Source: Lachnospiraceae bacterium
GTDB taxonomy: Bacteria; Bacillota; Clostridia; Lachnospirales; Lachnospiraceae
DNA: 64,000 nucleotides
Reading direction: 5' to 3'
NCBI GenBank assembly: GCA_017521195.1
Contig: JAFXGP010000088.1
Coordinates: forward strand, 11,203-75,202
Shown here: in pieces, positions 9,907 to 15,408 of the stretch
Layout: each line of letters begins with the position of its first letter
How positions within the stretch are numbered: position 1 is the stretch's first letter
Position numbers and translations under genes: made by a program
Notes under the pieces: model-generated
What the model saw: only the letters and a program-made list of their open reading frames with translations
Databases searched by the model: none
What the model was told of the DNA's origin: nothing

Positions 9907-10476
9907 TTATTTTTTACTAACCTTATATTTTTCGATAACATCACATAATTGCTTTTTTCTTTCACTTCTATCACCGGAAATCTTAATGTAATTTATTTGA
10001 AACTGTTCCAAAAGAGATAGAATCAAAGCATCAATATCTCTCCTATACTTTTCATCTTCTGGTCTAACACCATCATATTGAAGAGCAAATTCTATTGGAA
10101 AGTAAACATACAAATCATATCTATCTTTCTCCAATAACCATATATTTTTCATCATTTCAATAAAATACTCAGAAATATATGGCCTTGGTAATTTACTATT
10201 CACCATAGCATATGCTACCGGATCCAGCAATGTACGATCACTTATAAAGATATCACATTCTTGCATCAACTTGTTTTCTTCATTTAATTGATCATTTATA
10301 TAATGAATATATGACTCTACTGTGGCATCCATATTTAAAGGATATCCCTTTTCTATAATTTTTCTTGCAACCTCTGTTACACTGTGAATTTTTAATTTGT
10401 CTGCAAGTATTTCCTCTATATCTTTTAGCAATGTAGTCTTTCCTGTACAATGTGTTCCTGTAAATGCTATTTTCAC
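9907..10476 (-). CDS. P-loop NTPase / nucleoside-kinase-like protein (AAA_28 / NadR-RNK-like)
   Basis: 189 aa. Walker A GTHCTGKTTL, and a Walker-B-like FISDRTLLD. GTG start overlaps the upstream stop (GTGA, 10473..10476). Confidence 0.55.
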   Translation of the reverse strand: MKIAFTGTHCTGKTTLLKDIEEILADKLKIHSVTEVARKIIEKGYPLNMDATVESYIHYINDQLNEENKLMQECDIFISDRTLLDPVAYAMVNSKLPRPYISEYFIEMMKNIWLLEKDRYDLYVYFPIEFALQYDGVRPEDEKYRRDIDALILSLLEQFQINYIKISGDRSERKKQLCDVIEKYKVSKK

Positions 10477-11396
10477 CCCTCTGCACCATCCTTTTTTAAA
10501 TATAAATCTTTCATCATTCTTGCACCTCTCTCCTGAGAATCTCGCGCTTCACAAATTATTACCGGTTGCACCCCTTTATATTTTATTGCTTCGACAAAGT
10601 GCTCTGCCAAAGGATAATATCTATTCTCTTTAACTTCACTAAATAATTCTAATTGTTGATTCTCAATTCTATCTTCAAATGCTCGATGTCTCTTCTCACC
10701 ATTACGATCGATTTCCACCGGATACATATGAAAATGAGTCTCTTCTAAATATTGCCTTCCCAATTCTTTCTCTATGAGATTAAGTATTTCTATAATACTT
10801 TCCGATGTCGTTAATTTACCATTCTCAAATCCGTGCACATGGGCCACATCAATACAAGGACGAGTATACTCCACACGAGAACATATATATATAATATCGT
10901 TCACACTACCTATCTGGCTATGCTTACCTGCTGTTTCAGGATATAAATATATGCCCTTTGGAATTTTATTTTTAATACTATTTAATCCATCTACTATTCT
11001 TTTTAATGCATCCATCCTATCGGCTTCACTCTTCCCCGGAAAATGCCCTGGATGAAAGACAATTCTCTTAGAACCAATTCTAACTGCAAGTTCAAAACAT
11101 TGTAATATCCTTTCCTTAGATCTCTGAACTATTGCATCATCAGCACTTGCCAATGTAATAAAATAAGGTGCATGTAAAGATATTCCTATTTTATATTTCT
11201 CAGCCAATTCCCTATACAAAACTGCCTGTTCTTCCTTCATCTTTACACCATAAGTATTTTGAAGCTCTATCCAATCCAAATTTAATTCATTCAACCACTC
11301 AAATATATTTTCTCTTTTCTTTTTATACCTGCTTTCGAAAAAAGCCGGCGGAAAACCCGCAACACCAAACCTTATTTCTTTTTGTTCTTTTATCAT
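10473..11396 (-). CDS. endonuclease IV-like / xylose-isomerase-like TIM-barrel metalloenzyme
   Basis: 307 aa. Ordered metal-ligand-like motifs LHAPYFI, VFHPGHF, YPETAGK, IDVAHVHG, THFHMYP and ICEARD resemble the Nfo pattern. ATGA overlap with the upstream gene (11393..11396). Confidence 0.6.
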   Translation of the reverse strand: MIKEQKEIRFGVAGFPPAFFESRYKKKRENIFEWLNELNLDWIELQNTYGVKMKEEQAVLYRELAEKYKIGISLHAPYFITLASADDAIVQRSKERILQCFELAVRIGSKRIVFHPGHFPGKSEADRMDALKRIVDGLNSIKNKIPKGIYLYPETAGKHSQIGSVNDIIYICSRVEYTRPCIDVAHVHGFENGKLTTSESIIEILNLIEKELGRQYLEETHFHMYPVEIDRNGEKRHRAFEDRIENQQLELFSEVKENRYYPLAEHFVEAIKYKGVQPVIICEARDSQERGARMMKDLYLKKDGAEG

Positions 11397-12673
11397 GCTC
11401 GCTTTTTCTCCTTTTGTACGATGCCTTTCAACTCTTCACTAATTCTATTGCCGGCACAATATCCAGACCACATTGATTGCACGAACCCTCTGGAAATTCC
11501 CACTGCATCTCCTATTACATAAATATTTTTACAATTCGTTTCAAAATGTTCATCTGTACTGACAATCGGATTGAGTCTATCTACCGAAGGAAGCCAAACA
11601 GGATATTTATCTAGGTTTTCCTCCAGTATCTGTTCCTTTTGCATCATACGTATAAAATGTATAATTGCTTCAAAAACCTCAACAAATAGGTTTGTTTCTT
11701 TTATTAGACTATCACCATTTTTCACAAAATCTTTTAAGGACCAATCTAAATTTATATATTCTTTCAGATAAGAACAATATAGTGCAGCTCCCTCAAAACC
11801 ATATATATAAGGACTTCTAGCTAATATTCCCAAATTAACCTGTTTTGTAATAACATTTTCGAAATGACCATCATAATATTTCATTCCATTTAAGTTTACA
11901 ATAGTCTTACTTCCACCAGAACACACACAAAATGTTCTCAAACCAATATCACCAATTTGAGCCTTAAGTTTAATGTCTTTTCCTATCTCTCTAAATATTT
12001 CTGTTCTATTATAGTCTATACCAAATCGTATTCCCAAATCGGGATTTTGCAATCTGACATTTTTTTGTTTTCCGAACCATTTCATAATTCGCTCAGAAGA
12101 AAGCCTTCCACTAGCAAATATTATATAATCAACTAACTCTTCGATAGTTTCTGTATTATTTTTTTTACACTGTATTATATACCCATCGTTTACTTTTTTA
12201 TAATCGATGAACTCGCACGATGTAATAATATCTACACCATACTTTCTTACTTCCGCCAACAAACTTGAAACAAAGCAATTCATTTCCGTTTTTGTTAAAA
12301 GTATAGATTCATAATTCTTTTGAAAAAAATTATCTGTTTTTGATAGTATCATAGATATACCACCACTCTCAGGGAACTTTTTATTTTGTATAAAAAATTT
12401 CAAATATCTTTCACAAAAAACTGCAAACTCATCTGCATAAAATCCGGTTCGTTTCCATACTCCCGCACTAGCTGGGGGAAAACATAATTTCCCTCCATAA
12501 ATAGTTCCTGCCCCTCCTTCTCCACAGACCATACCTGACTCATCTTCTACCACTCTTTCTGCATAATGTTTACCCTTTTCAATTATAATAATCTGTGCTT
12601 CAAAGTTTTGGGCTAATTGATAAGCCGCTGTAAGACCACTAAGACCTGCACCAACAATTAATATTTTTTTCAT
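11393..12673 (-). CDS. FAD/NAD(P)-binding oxidoreductase (uncharacterised FAD-dependent dehydrogenase type)
   Basis: 426 aa. N-terminal dinucleotide fold KILIVGAGLSGLTAAYQLA...IIIEKG and C-terminal IYVIGDAVGISRG. SD AGGAGAG upstream. Confidence 0.7.
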   Translation of the reverse strand: MKKILIVGAGLSGLTAAYQLAQNFEAQIIIIEKGKHYAERVVEDESGMVCGEGGAGTIYGGKLCFPPASAGVWKRTGFYADEFAVFCERYLKFFIQNKKFPESGGISMILSKTDNFFQKNYESILLTKTEMNCFVSSLLAEVRKYGVDIITSCEFIDYKKVNDGYIIQCKKNNTETIEELVDYIIFASGRLSSERIMKWFGKQKNVRLQNPDLGIRFGIDYNRTEIFREIGKDIKLKAQIGDIGLRTFCVCSGGSKTIVNLNGMKYYDGHFENVITKQVNLGILARSPYIYGFEGAALYCSYLKEYINLDWSLKDFVKNGDSLIKETNLFVEVFEAIIHFIRMMQKEQILEENLDKYPVWLPSVDRLNPIVSTDEHFETNCKNIYVIGDAVGISRGFVQSMWSGYCAGNRISEELKGIVQKEKKRA

Positions 12674-12838
12674 TTTTCTCTCCTAAATCACAACATCTAT
12701 ATACTTTTTTGACATTTTCTTACCTACTAAGCTTTTCTCCTATCCGTCTTACCAATTCCTGTATAAACTCATCTGACTTTGTCAATTGCTCCACTATTTT
12801 ATCTTCTTTTATCTCTGCCAAAATAGTATCTTTTAATC

Positions 12839-13621
12839 CTAACAATCCACATTCCGCAGGTATTGTTCCTGAGAACGAAAATACCTAATATCTTTAATTC
12901 CGTTAGTATCACAATATGACTTTTGATACTTCTTTTTATTCATTTTCTTTAAATTTAATATAGTTTCATTGCGTACTTCTTCATCACCCAAACATGAAAC
13001 ATAAGAAAATTCAATAGTTGCTATTTTATCACCATGCTTTATATCAATTACTCTACTACTTAGATTATATATAAAGCAAAACAACTTCCCTCTATAATAA
13101 GGTTCAACCTGAGTTGCCTGCTGACTAATTATTCCTTTATGTACACTTCCTAATTTTAAATCAAATCTTCCTACAACAATTTTTTTATGTTTTTCTACCA
13201 CACTATAAGTATCCACAGTTTCTCTCAATTGTATAAGTGCAGCACCATACGGGGGTATACTTAATGTTCTTATCTTTACATCATTCTGTCTTTTGTATTG
13301 ATTGCTAGGTTGATGATTTTCATTCAACTTTTCCATTTCATCATCTTCCCCTATATAAAAAAGATTCCATTTCTTCGCCTTACCATCACCTTCTCCACTA
13401 TAGACAAAATGGCCTTCGCCCATCGTCAAATCAAATGTAGTTGGTTTCAAGCGATCTGTTGGATTTTCATCAGGCGAATAATCAACTAATCCGTAACGAA
13501 CTATCTCTTCTGAAGTTAATATCCCTGCCATTTTTTGAAAGCAGCTACTATTATGCTCACAATTCAAATCCATTTTAGAATTATCGCCTATGTCTATACT
13601 TTTTTCGCTTCCCATTACCAC
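12839..13621 (-). CDS. dCTP deaminase / dUTPase-fold protein (divergent; candidate defence effector)
   Basis: 260 aa. The core follows the Dcd/dUTPase pattern: ILTSEEIVRYGL, TTFDLTMGEG, IPPYGAALIQLRETV, VVGRFDLKLGS, QVEPYYRGKLFCFIYN, HGDKIATIEF. SD AGGAGAAG overlaps the stop codon of the KAP gene. The track start is a GTG (13621), with an ATG two codons in (13615). Confidence 0.7.
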   Translation of the reverse strand: MVMGSEKSIDIGDNSKMDLNCEHNSSCFQKMAGILTSEEIVRYGLVDYSPDENPTDRLKPTTFDLTMGEGHFVYSGEGDGKAKKWNLFYIGEDDEMEKLNENHQPSNQYKRQNDVKIRTLSIPPYGAALIQLRETVDTYSVVEKHKKIVVGRFDLKLGSVHKGIISQQATQVEPYYRGKLFCFIYNLSSRVIDIKHGDKIATIEFSYVSCLGDEEVRNETILNLKKMNKKKYQKSYCDTNGIKDIRYFRSQEQYLRNVDC

Positions 13622-13629
13622 AACTTCTC

Positions 13630-14976
13630 CTAATTCATAATTTCAGAAAAATCACAATATCGTTTTACAATATCTAATTCCTTATATCTATCTATATTTC
13701 CATCTGTTCGTGGATAATATGGCATGTCATCTGCATTATATACATTAGCAAAATACCAAAAGACATCGCCATATATAGTACTCTTTAACTTTCCCTTTTC
13801 GTTTATACCTAACTTAACATAACCCTCAGCTTCTCTTTCCAACATCCTTAAATACTCAAACTTTTTAATTCCTAATTCTTTCTCTAACTCAGAATATTTT
13901 TCACGATTAATCAAGGCCAACTTATTCATATCTCCAAAGTTCCACATTTTTAACACTTCATACAGGATTTCAAACATTAAAACCGATTCATCTACCGGCT
14001 CTTTGCATACAATAGAATGCACAACATCTATCTTTTCAATTAATTTCTCTTGTATTCTGACATCAACTCCTGTAAACAGATCCGTAACAACTTTTTCTAT
14101 CTTTTCTTGATTTTTTAATTTCCCATTAACTTGAAATTTTTTAAAATAACGTTCATATTTATGGATAAGATTATTATTAATTTTTCCTTTATCCAATATC
14201 AGTGAAAAATTAATAAATTTTTTTAAATACTTCTCAACACTCATCGAATTCTTACTTTGATTTCCTCCAAACATCTCTTCCACAGAATGTTCCAACTGCG
14301 TTCTATCAATAGCAAGAATCACAACGATATTCTCTAACCCTGAAAAAATATGATGAAGTCGTTCCAATACCTTAATTGTATACTGCGGAATACATCGATC
14401 CAATTCATCAACAACAAAAACTATTGTTCTTTCATCAGCAATTTCTCGTAATTTATCCTGCACCTGTTCTATAGTCTTATTAAAATTAAACATTTTATCA
14501 AAAGCATAACTTTCTTTTTCATTTTTATCTTTGTTATCTTTTATATCACTTACAACATTTACTATATTTACTCCTATTTTATTTTCTATATATAATCCTG
14601 CAATTTCTTGTAATTTATCCTGAGCCAATTGCCAACCAGCTTTTACTGTATCTACCATCTCCAAATTAGTAAGTGCTTCATCTTTCCGAATGGAGCTTAA
14701 CATAGCCGAGATAATTGCCACAGCTGGTTCTTCATAATAGTCATATTTCCAACAATTATAATGAAACACAAAATATTTATCATTCGCAGTCTTTTCGCTC
14801 TGTATAATATTTAATTTCTTTTCTAATTGCTCAACAACAAATGTTTTTCCGATTCCCCATCCACCTTCAATGGCAAAACAACATCCCTGTTTGTTTTCTG
14901 ATAATTGTTCTACTACTTTAATCACATTATCTACAAACTTATCACGATCTAATAAATCAACTTTCTCTCTTTCCAT
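13630..14976 (-). CDS. KAP-family P-loop NTPase (soluble, no transmembrane insert)
   Basis: 448 aa. Walker A IEGGWGIGKTF, family-typical NCWKYDYYEEP, and Walker B TIVFVVDELDRC. No hydrophobic stretch of 18 aa or more lies between Walker A and Walker B. Confidence 0.8.
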   Translation of the reverse strand: MEREKVDLLDRDKFVDNVIKVVEQLSENKQGCCFAIEGGWGIGKTFVVEQLEKKLNIIQSEKTANDKYFVFHYNCWKYDYYEEPAVAIISAMLSSIRKDEALTNLEMVDTVKAGWQLAQDKLQEIAGLYIENKIGVNIVNVVSDIKDNKDKNEKESYAFDKMFNFNKTIEQVQDKLREIADERTIVFVVDELDRCIPQYTIKVLERLHHIFSGLENIVVILAIDRTQLEHSVEEMFGGNQSKNSMSVEKYLKKFINFSLILDKGKINNNLIHKYERYFKKFQVNGKLKNQEKIEKVVTDLFTGVDVRIQEKLIEKIDVVHSIVCKEPVDESVLMFEILYEVLKMWNFGDMNKLALINREKYSELEKELGIKKFEYLRMLEREAEGYVKLGINEKGKLKSTIYGDVFWYFANVYNADDMPYYPRTDGNIDRYKELDIVKRYCDFSEIMN

Positions 14977-15090: not shown

Positions 15091-15408
15091 TTAATTAGAA
15101 TCATCCTTCTCCTCACAAAACTCATTGATCAGTTTCATAATTTTCCCTAATCTCTTCATTTGTGCCGGACTCATGTTATCAAATTTGCCATTCCGATTTT
15201 TACCTTCTCCGGTCAACAAATAATCACAACTTGAAGATAGGGCTCTGCTAATCTTCAATAATGTCTCGGCTGAAATTCCTTTTTTACCCATTTCCACTTC
15301 ATACAAAAACTTGGTTGAAATCTCTGCTTTCTCCGCCAGTTCCTCTCTGGTCATGTTTCTTTCTTTTCTTAATTCTTGTATTCTTATCCCCATTTTGTCA
15401 TTCGTCAT
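15091..15408 (-). CDS. XRE-family helix-turn-helix transcriptional regulator
   Basis: 105 aa. Sequence IRIQELRKERNMTREELAEKAEISTKFLYEVEMGKKGISAETLLKISRAL is a canonical HTH_XRE. SD AAGGGGA 9 nt upstream. Confidence 0.85.
   Translation of the reverse strand: MTNDKMGIRIQELRKERNMTREELAEKAEISTKFLYEVEMGKKGISAETLLKISRALSSSCDYLLTGEGKNRNGKFDNMSPAQMKRLGKIMKLINEFCEEKDDSN

What the first reader, a model, noticed from the sequence alone, without database searches (positions are those of the whole stretch)
12839..13621. The deaminase-fold protein lacks the canonical dCTP-deaminase catalytic residues but keeps a dUTPase motif-III-like signature
I aligned the protein by eye against E. coli Dcd as I remember it: GRSSLARLG ... 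RIDPGWSGCIVLEFYN, with catalytic Ser111/Arg115/Glu138. The equivalent segments here are GRFDLKLGS and QVEPYYRGKLFCFIYN. The Ser/Arg positions are not conserved, and the catalytic Glu position is Phe.
The segment VEPYYRGK instead resembles dUTPase motif III (G-x-I-D-x-x-Y-R-G-E), with Glu in place of the catalytic Asp. The protein also has extra N-terminal (~30 aa) and C-terminal (~55 aa, Lys/Cys-rich) extensions.
It may therefore be a (d)NTP pyrophosphatase, a nucleotide-binding switch or a pseudo-enzyme rather than a true deaminase. That would differ mechanistically from the known dCTP-deaminase defence.
Basis: partly seen in the sequence, partly recalled or inferred. Interest (0 to 1): 0.6.

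Follow-up and report, generated by a model that had tools for sequence, protein, structure and literature searches.

The report
Non-deaminase DCD-fold protein, mobile nucleotide cassette
The gene encodes a dCTP-deaminase/dUTPase-fold protein that lacks the deaminase catalytic residues, and it is the first gene of a rare, horizontally moving cassette (with a flavoenzyme, an endonuclease-IV-like enzyme and a small kinase-like protein) that sits in defence islands and may be an undescribed nucleotide-based conflict system.

Summary
Three independent alignments and an AlphaFold model place the protein in the DCD/DCD-DUT/archaeal-dUTPase fold. E. coli Dcd Ser111, Arg115 and Glu138 correspond to Leu157, a variable position (His161) and Phe183. 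The dUTPase-type carboxylate (invariant Glu173), the sugar-stacking Tyr176, a basic residue at the Arg110 position (Lys156) and a C-terminal KY...G...R lid motif are strictly conserved.

Three corrections apply.
- The ORF end is an assembly artefact. Contigs from four independent studies carry one extra base at 12861/12862, giving a 298-aa protein that ends at 12720.
- The invariant partner is not the KAP NTPase but the downstream COG2509-type FAD oxidoreductase, usually followed by an EndoIV-like enzyme and an AAA_28 P-loop protein.

This cassette recurs in Clostridia, Desulfobacterota and Kiritimatiellales, in prophages, ICEs and restriction/Abi islands. It was found in 1 of 300 other sampled Lachnospiraceae species, and only as a distant relative. 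KAP accompanies only the sub-clade that lost the C-terminal membrane anchor.

Best reading: a pyrimidine-dNTP-binding or hydrolysing subunit of an uncharacterised, nucleotide-centred, probably anti-phage system. The biochemistry is inferred, not shown. This scan's own notes flagged the neighbouring genes on this window; nothing similar was noted on other DNA.

The parts
12862..13615 (-). DCD/dUTPase-fold gene, main reading frame (Met at 13615; the listed ORF starts two codons earlier at GTG 13621)
   Evidence: ORF list. All relatives start at the equivalent Met. AF2 model pLDDT 87. Foldseek DCD-DUT/Dcd/archaeal dUTPase E 1e-10.
12720..12861 (-). C-terminal 47 codons of the same gene, out of frame in this assembly (reads ...LPAECGLLGL...GEKLSR, stop 12720-12722)
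   Evidence: Frame translation matches the tail of P0005 and the other relatives. With the extra base the ORF is 298 aa.
12861..12862 (.). Site of the 1-base gap. Other assemblies have an extra A (+ strand) here, giving CAA TTA CCT = Gln-Leu-Pro on the minus strand.
   Evidence: read laying: contigs of 4 runs from 4 studies all show 'A put in behind 12861', with no other difference in 1201 bases.
13151..13171 (-). GRFDLKL motif (residues 151-157). It takes the place of the Dcd G-W-L-D-G-R-S segment: Lys156 at the Arg110 position and Leu157 at the Ser111 position.
   Evidence: three alignments, same register. Conservation G56, R50, F56, D56, L56, K50/R6, L55 of 56. Coordinates checked.
13073..13126 (-). 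SQQATQVEPYYRGKLFCF segment: invariant Ser166, Gln167, Gln168, Thr170, Gln171, Glu173 and Cys182; Tyr176 at the dUTPase Tyr93 position; Phe183 (13073-13075) at the Dcd Glu138 position.
11393..12673 (-). COG2509-type FAD-dependent oxidoreductase, the invariant partner of the DCD-like gene
   Evidence: Pfam Pyr_redox_2/DAO. AF2 pLDDT 90. Best PDB match 3nlc VP0956, E 6e-17. Adjacent to the DCD-like gene in all loci. Full-length homologues sit next to sister-clade DCD-like genes.
10473..11396 (-). Endonuclease-IV-like TIM-barrel phosphodiesterase
   Evidence: PF01261 1e-26. TIGR00587 nfo 8e-19. PDB EndoIV 2x7v 1.2e-11, with the His/Glu/Asp metal motifs aligned by eye. 53-78% identical across phyla.
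9907..10476 (-). AAA_28 (NadR-kinase-like) P-loop protein, probably a nucleoside or nucleotide kinase
   Evidence: PF13521 4e-26. NadR kinase domain 7e-6. Nearest Atlas clusters are phage AAA_28/deoxynucleoside-kinase-like. Conserved last gene of the cassette.
13630..14976 (-). Soluble KAP-family P-loop NTPase (PADLOC candidate PDC-S20), an accessory gene of the short-tailed sub-clade
   Evidence: PF07693 6e-29. PDC-S20 8e-158. Present upstream in the window and in L006/7, L023, L024, L025; absent in all long-tailed loci.
15091..15408 (-). XRE/CapH-like HTH regulator upstream of the operon
   Evidence: HTH_3 8e-13. capH 5e-12.

Best explanation
The gene encodes a 298-aa protein; the 260-aa ORF results from a one-base gap in this assembly. 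It belongs to a distinct clade of the dCTP-deaminase/dUTPase fold, with signature GRFDLK ... SQQ-TQ-V/I-E-P-x-Y-x-G-x-L-F/Y-C.

The clade has lost the Dcd deamination residues: Ser111 is Leu, Arg115 is variable and Glu138 is Phe. It keeps what a dUTPase-type nucleotide site needs: a carboxylate at the catalytic Asp position (Glu173), the deoxyribose-stacking Tyr176, a basic residue at the Arg110 position (Lys156) and a C-terminal Lys-Tyr...Gly...Arg lid.

Inferred function: it binds a pyrimidine deoxynucleoside triphosphate. It then either hydrolyses it to the monophosphate plus pyrophosphate or holds it for its obligate neighbour, a COG2509-type FAD oxidoreductase. It does not deaminate dCTP.

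The DCD-like/FAD pair is the core of a horizontally mobile cassette. An endonuclease-IV-like phosphodiesterase and an AAA_28 kinase-like protein usually complete it. In most members the DCD-like protein is anchored to the membrane by a C-terminal helix. In the window's sub-clade that anchor is missing, and a soluble KAP NTPase plus an XRE regulator lie upstream.

From its genomic company, the cassette is most likely an uncharacterised anti-phage or anti-mobile-element system that acts on the pyrimidine deoxynucleotide pool or on DNA built from it.

Shown here: fold, residue replacements, conservation, gene linkage, mobility and the frameshift artefact. Inferred: ligand, catalysis, defence role.
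For: Fold: AF2 pLDDT 87. Foldseek gives 4xjc DCD-DUT 7.6e-11, 9ln0/8y1w archaeal dUTPases 3-5e-10 and E. coli Dcd 5e-10.

Residue mapping is identical in three methods.

The C-terminal KY(231-232)...G241-I242...R246 motif aligns with Dcd K178-Y179...G184...R189.

Intact gene: all four independent assemblies carry the extra base, which gives a 298-aa ORF.

Linkage: DCD-like, FAD, EndoIV-like and AAA_28 lie in that order in L001-11, L013, L018, L020/21 and L023. The DCD-like/FAD pair alone (L014, L019) or with the EndoIV-like gene (L022) occurs in the others; in L012 the FAD gene lies nearby on the opposite strand.

Sister-clade DCD-like genes also neighbour full-length homologues of the FAD protein (hhalign 1.4e-47 and 1.5e-29). 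Those loci add NUDIX, NDK, a guanylate-kinase fusion or an HD domain.

A distant FAD homologue on B. cereus plasmids sits with NUDIX, HAD and dihydropyrimidine dehydrogenase genes.

Mobility and defence company:
- GmrSD (L001)
- P2-like prophage slot between primase and Ogr/portal (L004)
- integrases (L006, L022)
- IS66 and a caspase-like gene (L018)
- prophage between terminase and portal (L019)
- Eco57I-type methylase + HATPase + HNH (L023-25)
- PLD nuclease + Eco57I methylase (L008)
- AbiEii (L010)
- serine recombinase (L011)

Rarity: 7 loci in 185,579 species genomes. Among 300 other Lachnospiraceae species, 1 has a distant match, and the same-genus genome has none.

Membrane anchor: 116 of 116 long-tailed members have a hydrophobic 19-mer; the 52-aa-tailed members have none.

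The genome has a separate canonical dUTPase.
Against: - No biochemical or phage-challenge data exist for any member.
- None of the DCD-like, FAD, EndoIV-like or AAA_28 proteins matches a PADLOC model. No paper describing the cassette was found. The defence role therefore rests only on genomic association.
- The motif-II serines that dUTPases and archaeal DCD-like dUTPases use on the phosphates are missing, and the catalytic carboxylate is Glu rather than Asp. Hydrolytic activity is uncertain.
- Invariant His71, Cys182, Glu204 and near-invariant Glu134 have no counterpart in Dcd or Dut. They could form a different catalytic centre, even a relocated general acid that restores deamination. I could not inspect model coordinates or a trimer to exclude this.
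- The FAD homologue next to pyrimidine-catabolic genes on B. cereus plasmids fits a metabolic role as well as a defence role.
Confidence: 0.6

Rival explanations
1. KAP-centred two-gene system. The soluble KAP NTPase is the sensor or motor. The DCD-fold protein is its effector or nucleotide-binding switch. The three downstream genes are a separate operon.
For: KAP lies 14 nt upstream in the window and in all four other short-tailed members examined. KAP matches PADLOC PDC-S20 at 8e-158. KAP NTPases fused to C-terminal regions of unknown function were shown to defend against phages (PMC13552941). Loss of the membrane anchor coincides with gain of KAP.
Against: All long-tailed members examined lack KAP, yet every locus keeps the FAD gene beside or near the DCD-like gene, and most keep the whole cassette. 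After frame correction only 46 nt separate the DCD-like stop from the FAD start, and no terminator-like site lies there. PDC-S20 is defined as a single-gene candidate.
Confidence: 0.12
2. Mobile pyrimidine-nucleotide housekeeping or salvage module, not immunity. The DCD-like protein is a dUTPase/dCTPase-type sanitising pyrophosphatase. The FAD enzyme, phosphodiesterase and kinase recycle or catabolise pyrimidine nucleotides.
For: The closest solved sequence relatives are archaeal dUTPases. A distant FAD homologue sits with NUDIX, HAD and PreT/PreA on B. cereus plasmids. A HAD hydrolase lies upstream in L001-3. NUDIX and NDK are in L029.
Against: Distribution is extremely sporadic. The cassette repeatedly lies inside prophages, ICEs and restriction/Abi islands. 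The genome already has a canonical dUTPase. A membrane anchor and a coiled-coil tail are odd for a pool-sanitising enzyme.
Confidence: 0.13
3. DNA-base modification pathway carried by mobile elements, as self-marking or anti-restriction. It would be analogous to phage thymidine hypermodification, where a P-loop kinase and a GR2-family FAD oxidase act on 5-substituted deoxyuridine.
For: There is precedent for a GR2-family flavoenzyme that flips and oxidises a modified base in DNA (PaMx11 gp47/NGTO, PMC11472151). The nearest Atlas clusters of the FAD, AAA_28 and DCD-like proteins are largely phage-derived. An EndoIV-like DNA enzyme is in the cassette.
Against: No match to the FAD or DCD-like proteins in 50,697 sequenced phages or in IMG/VR by motif. 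No transferase, glycosylase or aGPT-Pplase-type gene is in the cassette. NGTO was not among the 50 best structural matches of the FAD model.
Confidence: 0.1
4. A genuine dCTP deaminase (housekeeping Dcd or a dCTP-depleting defence enzyme) that uses relocated catalytic residues.
For: The DCD fold. Sources annotate some relatives as 'deoxycytidine triphosphate deaminase'. Invariant Glu204 and His71 are unassigned. No canonical dcd was found in this 82%-complete MAG.
Against: Ser111, Arg115 and Glu138 equivalents are all missing, in the core family and in the sister-clade members aligned. There is no hit to the PADLOC defence deaminase models. The fixed FAD partner is unexplained by simple deamination.
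Confidence: 0.05

Closest known systems
Archaeal DCD-like dUTPases (Thermococcus pacificus dUTPase 8y1w; dUTPase P45 9ln0/9ln3; Sulfolobus tokodaii 2zdc)
   Same: Same fold (Foldseek E 3e-10 to 2e-7, TM by target 0.70-0.79). Best sequence-profile hits in the PDB are 8y1w and 9ln0 (E 1.5e-4 and 8.7e-4). These two also lack the Dcd catalytic Glu (Met at that position in the alignment) while keeping the motif-III carboxylate.
   Different: They keep the Arg-Ser-Ser phosphate motif and an Asp, and they are about 155 aa without extensions. The window family has Lys-Leu-x and Glu, a roughly 45-aa insertion (residues about 75-118), an N-terminal Cys-containing extension, a long C-terminal tail (membrane anchor in most) and an obligate FAD-enzyme neighbour.
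E. coli dCTP deaminase Dcd (1xs1) and bifunctional DCD-DUT (4xjc, 1pkh, 2qlp)
   Same: Fold, the N-terminal D-L-R-L-G motif, the x-I/V-D/E-P-G/x motif, and the C-terminal K-Y...G...R lid.
   Different: Ser111, Arg115 and Glu138 are replaced by Leu, a variable residue and Phe. The Pfam DCD score is 14.6 bits against a cut-off of 27.
Trimeric dUTPases (E. coli Dut, PF00692)
   Same: Motif III resemblance: V-E-P-Y-Y-R-G-K against I-D-S-D-Y-Q-G-Q, with the Tyr aligned.
   Different: Only distant structural matches (E about 1e-4). No motif V Gly-rich arm. The motif II Ser is absent. Sub-threshold Pfam score (14.1 against 22 bits).
Nucleotide-depletion defences (defensive dCTP deaminase/AvcD, dGTPase) and KAP NTPase defences (PDC-S20, Tmn, PifA, EF_KAP)
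   Same: Defence-island location. A nucleotide-centred enzyme set. The KAP gene itself matches PDC-S20. KAP NTPases have been shown to defend against phages (PMC13552941).
   Different: No similarity of the DCD-like protein to any PADLOC model. From my own knowledge, the characterised defensive dCTP deaminase has a zinc cytidine-deaminase fold, not this fold. Here the KAP protein is soluble and optional.
VP0956 (PDB 3nlc) / COG2509 / PF21688 FAD-dependent proteins
   Same: The partner flavoenzyme has this fold over its full length (E 6e-17, TM by query 0.72; Atlas TM 0.82-0.85).
   Different: That family has no assigned function (no functional paper found). The cassette subfamily lacks a Pfam FAD-depend_C hit and forms its own group of about 185 sequence clusters.

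Membership tests
dCTP deaminase (Dcd, TIGR02274 / EC 3.5.4.13) | Catalytic Glu (E. coli Glu138) on the strand after the I-D-P-G motif | tested here: not met
   Phe183 aligns with Glu138 in hhalign, MAFFT and the HMM. Position 183 is F46/Y9/I1 in 56 members.
dCTP deaminase (Dcd, TIGR02274 / EC 3.5.4.13) | Ser111 and Arg115 of the G-R-S-S-L-A-R-x-G motif | tested here: not met
   Leu157 (L55/H1) and position 161 (H18/Y14/N8/...) occupy these places. Only the Arg110 position keeps a basic residue (K50/R6).
dCTP deaminase (Dcd, TIGR02274 / EC 3.5.4.13) | Score above the curated family cut-off | tested here: not met
   TIGR02274 22.1 bits against 92.8. PF22769 14.6 bits against 27.
DCD/dUTPase fold superfamily | Jelly-roll beta fold superposable on DCD/dUTPase structures | tested here: met
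   Foldseek probability 1.00, E 7.6e-11 to 1e-6 for 38 DCD/DCD-DUT/archaeal dUTPase chains.
DCD/dUTPase fold superfamily | Homotrimer with active sites between subunits | not tested
Model coordinates cannot be inspected with these tools.
dUTP pyrophosphatase (functional class) | Motif III carboxylate and deoxyribose-stacking aromatic residue | tested here: met
   Glu173 (56/56) at the Asp90(Dut)/Asp128(Dcd) position. Tyr176 (54/56) at the Tyr93(Dut) position. Glu instead of Asp.
dUTP pyrophosphatase (functional class) | Motif II Arg-Ser(-Ser) contacting the phosphates | tested here: not met
   Lys156-Leu157-x158 in place of Arg-Ser-Ser, compared with 8y1w, Dcd and Dut.
dUTP pyrophosphatase (functional class) | dUTP hydrolysis to dUMP + PPi | not testable with these tools
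   Needs an enzyme assay.
Anti-phage defence system | Enrichment next to known defence genes or on mobile elements | tested here: met
   About 12 of about 14 distinct contexts carry RM, GmrSD, AbiEii, prophage, ICE, integrase or recombinase genes. This is a small sample with no statistical background model.
Anti-phage defence system | Experimental protection against phage | not testable with these tools
   No data found. The cassette genes are absent from PADLOC 2.0.
KAP NTPase candidate system PDC-S20 | KAP P-loop protein matching the PDC-S20 model | tested here: met
   P0002 against PDLC04957: E 8e-158, full length. This applies to the neighbouring gene, not to the DCD-like protein.

The most novel reading that the evidence does not exclude
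The DCD-like/FAD pair is a new two-enzyme chemistry on pyrimidine deoxynucleotides. The DCD-fold trimer selects a dNTP (or its dNMP product). The Cys-containing COG2509 flavoenzyme oxidises, reduces or C5/C6-modifies the base or sugar. The kinase re-activates the product. The result would be a non-canonical deoxynucleotide that poisons phage replication, in the spirit of viperin-made chain terminators. The EndoIV-like enzyme would clear the lesion or 3' block from host DNA. This would make it a new class of small-molecule-producing immune system.
Probability: 0.15. Interest if true: 0.85.

Novelty: new variant of a known kind. Interest (0 to 1): 0.62.

Why it matters
- It defines a large, strictly conserved clade of the DCD/dUTPase fold that cannot be a canonical deaminase, although databases label members 'dCTP deaminase'. 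About 60 clusters at 50% identity form the core family. Several hundred further clusters form sister clades, including kinase and HTH fusions.
- It ties this clade to a flavoenzyme family of unknown function (COG2509, VP0956). That gives both families a testable context: pyrimidine deoxynucleotides.
- The cassette's location in prophage slots, ICEs and restriction/Abi islands makes it a concrete candidate for an undescribed nucleotide-based defence. It has a natural experiment built in: membrane-anchored versions against KAP-associated soluble versions.
- For annotation, the window ORF is truncated by an assembly error, and the supposed 'small third ORF' is its tail.

Tried and rejected
- Complex prediction of the KAP NTPase (L025 orthologue, 5-row alignment) with the intact DCD-like protein P0005 (42-row alignment) scored 0.00, 'no answer'. 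This is neither support nor evidence against binding.
- Literature searches for PDC-S20, dUTPase-like plus KAP, DCD-like plus FAD plus defence, COG2509/VP0956, Dcd catalytic residues, and dCTP deaminase plus conflict systems found no description of this cassette.
- The motif scan of IMG/VR found no relative. tblastn of the FAD and DCD-like proteins against INPHARED phages found none, and the DCD-like protein has none in PLSDB plasmids.
- The promoter/terminator scan gave nothing above shuffled expectation.
- Considered and rejected: that the frameshift is a real pseudogenising mutation (four other assemblies are intact), and that 12720-12845 is a separate small gene (it is the tail of this gene).
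- RNA evidence for expression was not sought. The one run search was used for DNA.
Full report
**1. What is at the coordinates**

ORF 12839..13621 (-) encodes 260 aa. It lies 14 nt downstream of a KAP-family NTPase (13630..14976). An XRE/CapH-like regulator (15091..15408) lies further upstream. Three tightly packed genes follow it on the same strand.

Family libraries barely recognise the protein. Pfam gives DCD E 0.036 and dUTPase E 0.042, TIGR02274 gives 1e-4, and PADLOC gives nothing.

An AlphaFold2 model built on 56 relatives is confident (pLDDT 87, pTM 0.83). It matches dCTP deaminase-dUTPases, E. coli Dcd and archaeal DCD-like dUTPases at Foldseek E 1e-10 to 1e-8. Classical trimeric dUTPases follow at about 1e-4. 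The fold assignment is therefore secure.

**2. The catalytic residues**

I took E. coli Dcd and Dut from NC_000913.3.

Three independent alignments give one register. They are hhalign of the family profile against Dcd, MAFFT with sister-clade proteins plus Dcd and Dut, and the family HMM against the Thermococcus dUTPase 8y1w.

| Window residue | Equivalent |
|---|---|
| G151-R-F-D154 | Dcd G105-W-L-D108 |
| Lys156 | Dcd Arg110 |
| Leu157 | Dcd Ser111 |
| Gly158 | Dcd Ser112 |
| His161 | Dcd Arg115 |
| Gln167 | Dcd His121 |
| Gln171 | Dcd Arg126 |
| Glu173 | Dcd Asp128 / Dut Asp90 |
| Tyr176 | Dcd Trp131 / Dut Tyr93 |
| Phe183 | Dcd Glu138 |

The Ser, Arg and Glu that define Dcd chemistry are absent. 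PDB titles confirm that Glu138 and His121 are the studied residues. The roles of Ser111 and Arg115 come from my knowledge of the Dcd literature.

Across 56 members, position 183 is F46/Y9/I1 and position 157 is L55/H1. Glu173, Ser166, Gln167, Gln168, Thr170, Gln171, Phe153, Asp154, His71, Cys182 and Glu204 are invariant. Tyr176 is 54/56.

The C-terminal K231-Y232...G241-I242...R246 motif aligns with the Dcd K178-Y179...G184...R189 lid. This is the profile of a protein under strong selection for a specific site, not of a decaying pseudo-enzyme.

The best sequence-profile hits among solved structures are archaeal DCD-like dUTPases, which also lack the Glu. Unlike them, this family has also lost the Arg-Ser-Ser serines and uses Glu rather than Asp.

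**3. The ORF end is an artefact**

Relatives are 286-450 aa and continue past the window's stop with L-P-x-D-C-G-L-L. The next frame of the window encodes exactly that tail, down to a stop at 12720.

Contigs from four runs of four different studies (animal gut metagenomes) cover the 1201 bases with no difference except one extra A behind 12861 on the + strand. That base restores CAA-TTA-CCT (Gln-Leu-Pro) and a 298-aa protein.

The deposited MAG is 82% complete in 133 contigs. It most likely carries an assembly error or a rare variant.

**4. The real functional neighbourhood**

Twelve context look-ups, seven loci from species genomes and a tblastn with the window's proteins give the following.
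- The DCD-like gene is followed by a 420-466-aa FAD oxidoreductase in every locus except L012. There the FAD gene lies nearby on the opposite strand.
- In most loci an EndoIV-like TIM-barrel protein and an AAA_28 P-loop protein come next.
- The hosts are Clostridia, Lachnospiraceae, Oscillospiraceae, Desulfovibrio, Desulfoluna and Kiritimatiellales.
- Between this Lachnospiraceae window and Desulfovibrio, the EndoIV-like and AAA_28 proteins are 59-60% identical. The DCD-like and FAD proteins are 46% and 38% identical.

The FAD subfamily is about as large as the DCD-like family (185 against 160 clusters). Its model (pLDDT 90) matches only the function-unknown VP0956 (3nlc, COG2509) over the full length.

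The pairing is older than the cassette. A sister-clade DCD-like gene in L029 sits between a NUDIX gene and a full-length homologue of the same flavoenzyme (hhalign E 1.4e-47), with NDK and a KAP NTPase nearby. In L028 a guanylate-kinase-DCD-like fusion follows another homologue (1.5e-29). L012 adds an HD-domain protein and a second DCD-like gene.

A distant homologue of the flavoenzyme on B. cereus megaplasmids is flanked by NUDIX, HAD and dihydropyrimidine dehydrogenase genes. Everything points to pyrimidine (deoxy)nucleotides as the substrate space.

**5. KAP and the tail**

All five members with a 52-aa soluble tail have a soluble 448-449-aa KAP NTPase immediately upstream: the window, P0005, P0006, P0009 and P0022. 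No long-tailed member examined has one.

All 116 long-tailed members with the lid motif carry a hydrophobic 19-mer (Kyte-Doolittle mean at least 1.6), often followed by coiled-coil-like sequence. In this sub-clade, loss of the membrane anchor therefore coincides with gain of KAP.

KAP matches PADLOC candidate PDC-S20 (8e-158). KAP NTPases have experimental anti-phage activity elsewhere (PMC13552941). A complex prediction of KAP with the DCD-like protein gave no answer.

**6. Genomic company and distribution**

The cassette lies in these settings:
- next to GmrSD (L001)
- in a P2-like prophage between primase and Ogr/portal (L004)
- beside integrases (L006, L022, the latter with T4SS genes)
- beside IS66 and a caspase-like gene (L018)
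- between terminase and portal (L019)
- after an Eco57I-type methylase/HATPase/HNH block (L023-25)
- before a PLD nuclease plus Eco57I methylase (L008)
- after AbiEii (L010)
- after a serine recombinase (L011)

The identical P0114 cassette sits in two different flanks. Only 7 of 185,579 species genomes matched the motif scan. Among 300 other Lachnospiraceae species, one has a distant relative, and the same-genus genome has none. The cassette is absent from sequenced phages and from IMG/VR by motif. This is the pattern of accessory, horizontally moving, conflict-related cargo.

**7. Mechanism**

Most likely (about 0.6 for the overall picture): the protein is the nucleotide-recognition subunit of a DCD-like/flavoenzyme module.

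My odds for its own activity are:
- about 35%: dNTP pyrophosphatase using Glu173
- about 30%: non-hydrolytic binder or presenter
- about 20%: different chemistry using His71, Cys182 or Glu204
- about 5%: deaminase with relocated residues

The EndoIV-like enzyme appears to keep its metal-ligand motifs (alignment read by eye). The AAA_28 protein resembles NadR-type and phage deoxynucleoside kinases. Whether the output is depletion, a toxic nucleotide or a DNA modification is open.

**8. Novelty**

I rate it a new variant of a known fold family, embedded in a probably new system.

Noticed in passing
window 12861-12862: The deposited assembly lacks one base here compared with contigs from four independent studies. 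Other genes of this MAG may carry similar single-base errors.
   Followed up: yes
window 13540-13561 and 12720-12995; alignment A6: Cys residues co-vary across the family: N-terminal C-x(n)-C pairs, S-C-x-C after the last core strand, Y-C and D-C-G. They are present together in roughly half the members. In P0081, P0103, P0105, P0110, P0114 and P0122 the N-terminal Cys and the S-C-x-C motif are missing together, although most of these keep the D/E-C-G Cys. This hints at a lineage-specific Zn or Fe-S site formed by the two extensions.
   Followed up: partly
P0172, P0178 (L028); P0232: Sister-clade DCD-like domains that also lack the catalytic Glu are fused to an N-terminal guanylate-kinase-like domain or to an XRE HTH domain. 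They pass the Pfam DCD threshold and so are annotated as dCTP deaminases.
   Followed up: partly
L029:1-13002: A related island holds N6_N4 methylase, HATPase_c_3, NUDIX, DCD-like, FAD protein, two unknown proteins, NDK and an 858-aa KAP NTPase. It may be a larger nucleotide-centred system.
   Followed up: no
L030 (B. cereus plasmid pDQ01B 211098-216459): A COG2509-type FAD protein forms an apparent operon with NUDIX, a HAD hydrolase and PreT/PreA dihydropyrimidine dehydrogenase. This is a possible clue to the substrate class of this flavoenzyme family.
   Followed up: no
L018:1-17038 and window 316-64000: In L018, as in the window, the cassette is inserted in a glycosyltransferase-rich surface-glycan locus. 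In L018 it sits with IS66 and a caspase-like peptidase. Glycan loci may be a recurrent landing site.
   Followed up: no
window 13630-14976: The KAP NTPase has intact Walker A (GGWGIGKT) and Walker B (DELDRC) motifs but no transmembrane insertion. Its four orthologues are 66-88% identical to the L025 copy, and the window copy is 75% identical to it.
   Followed up: partly
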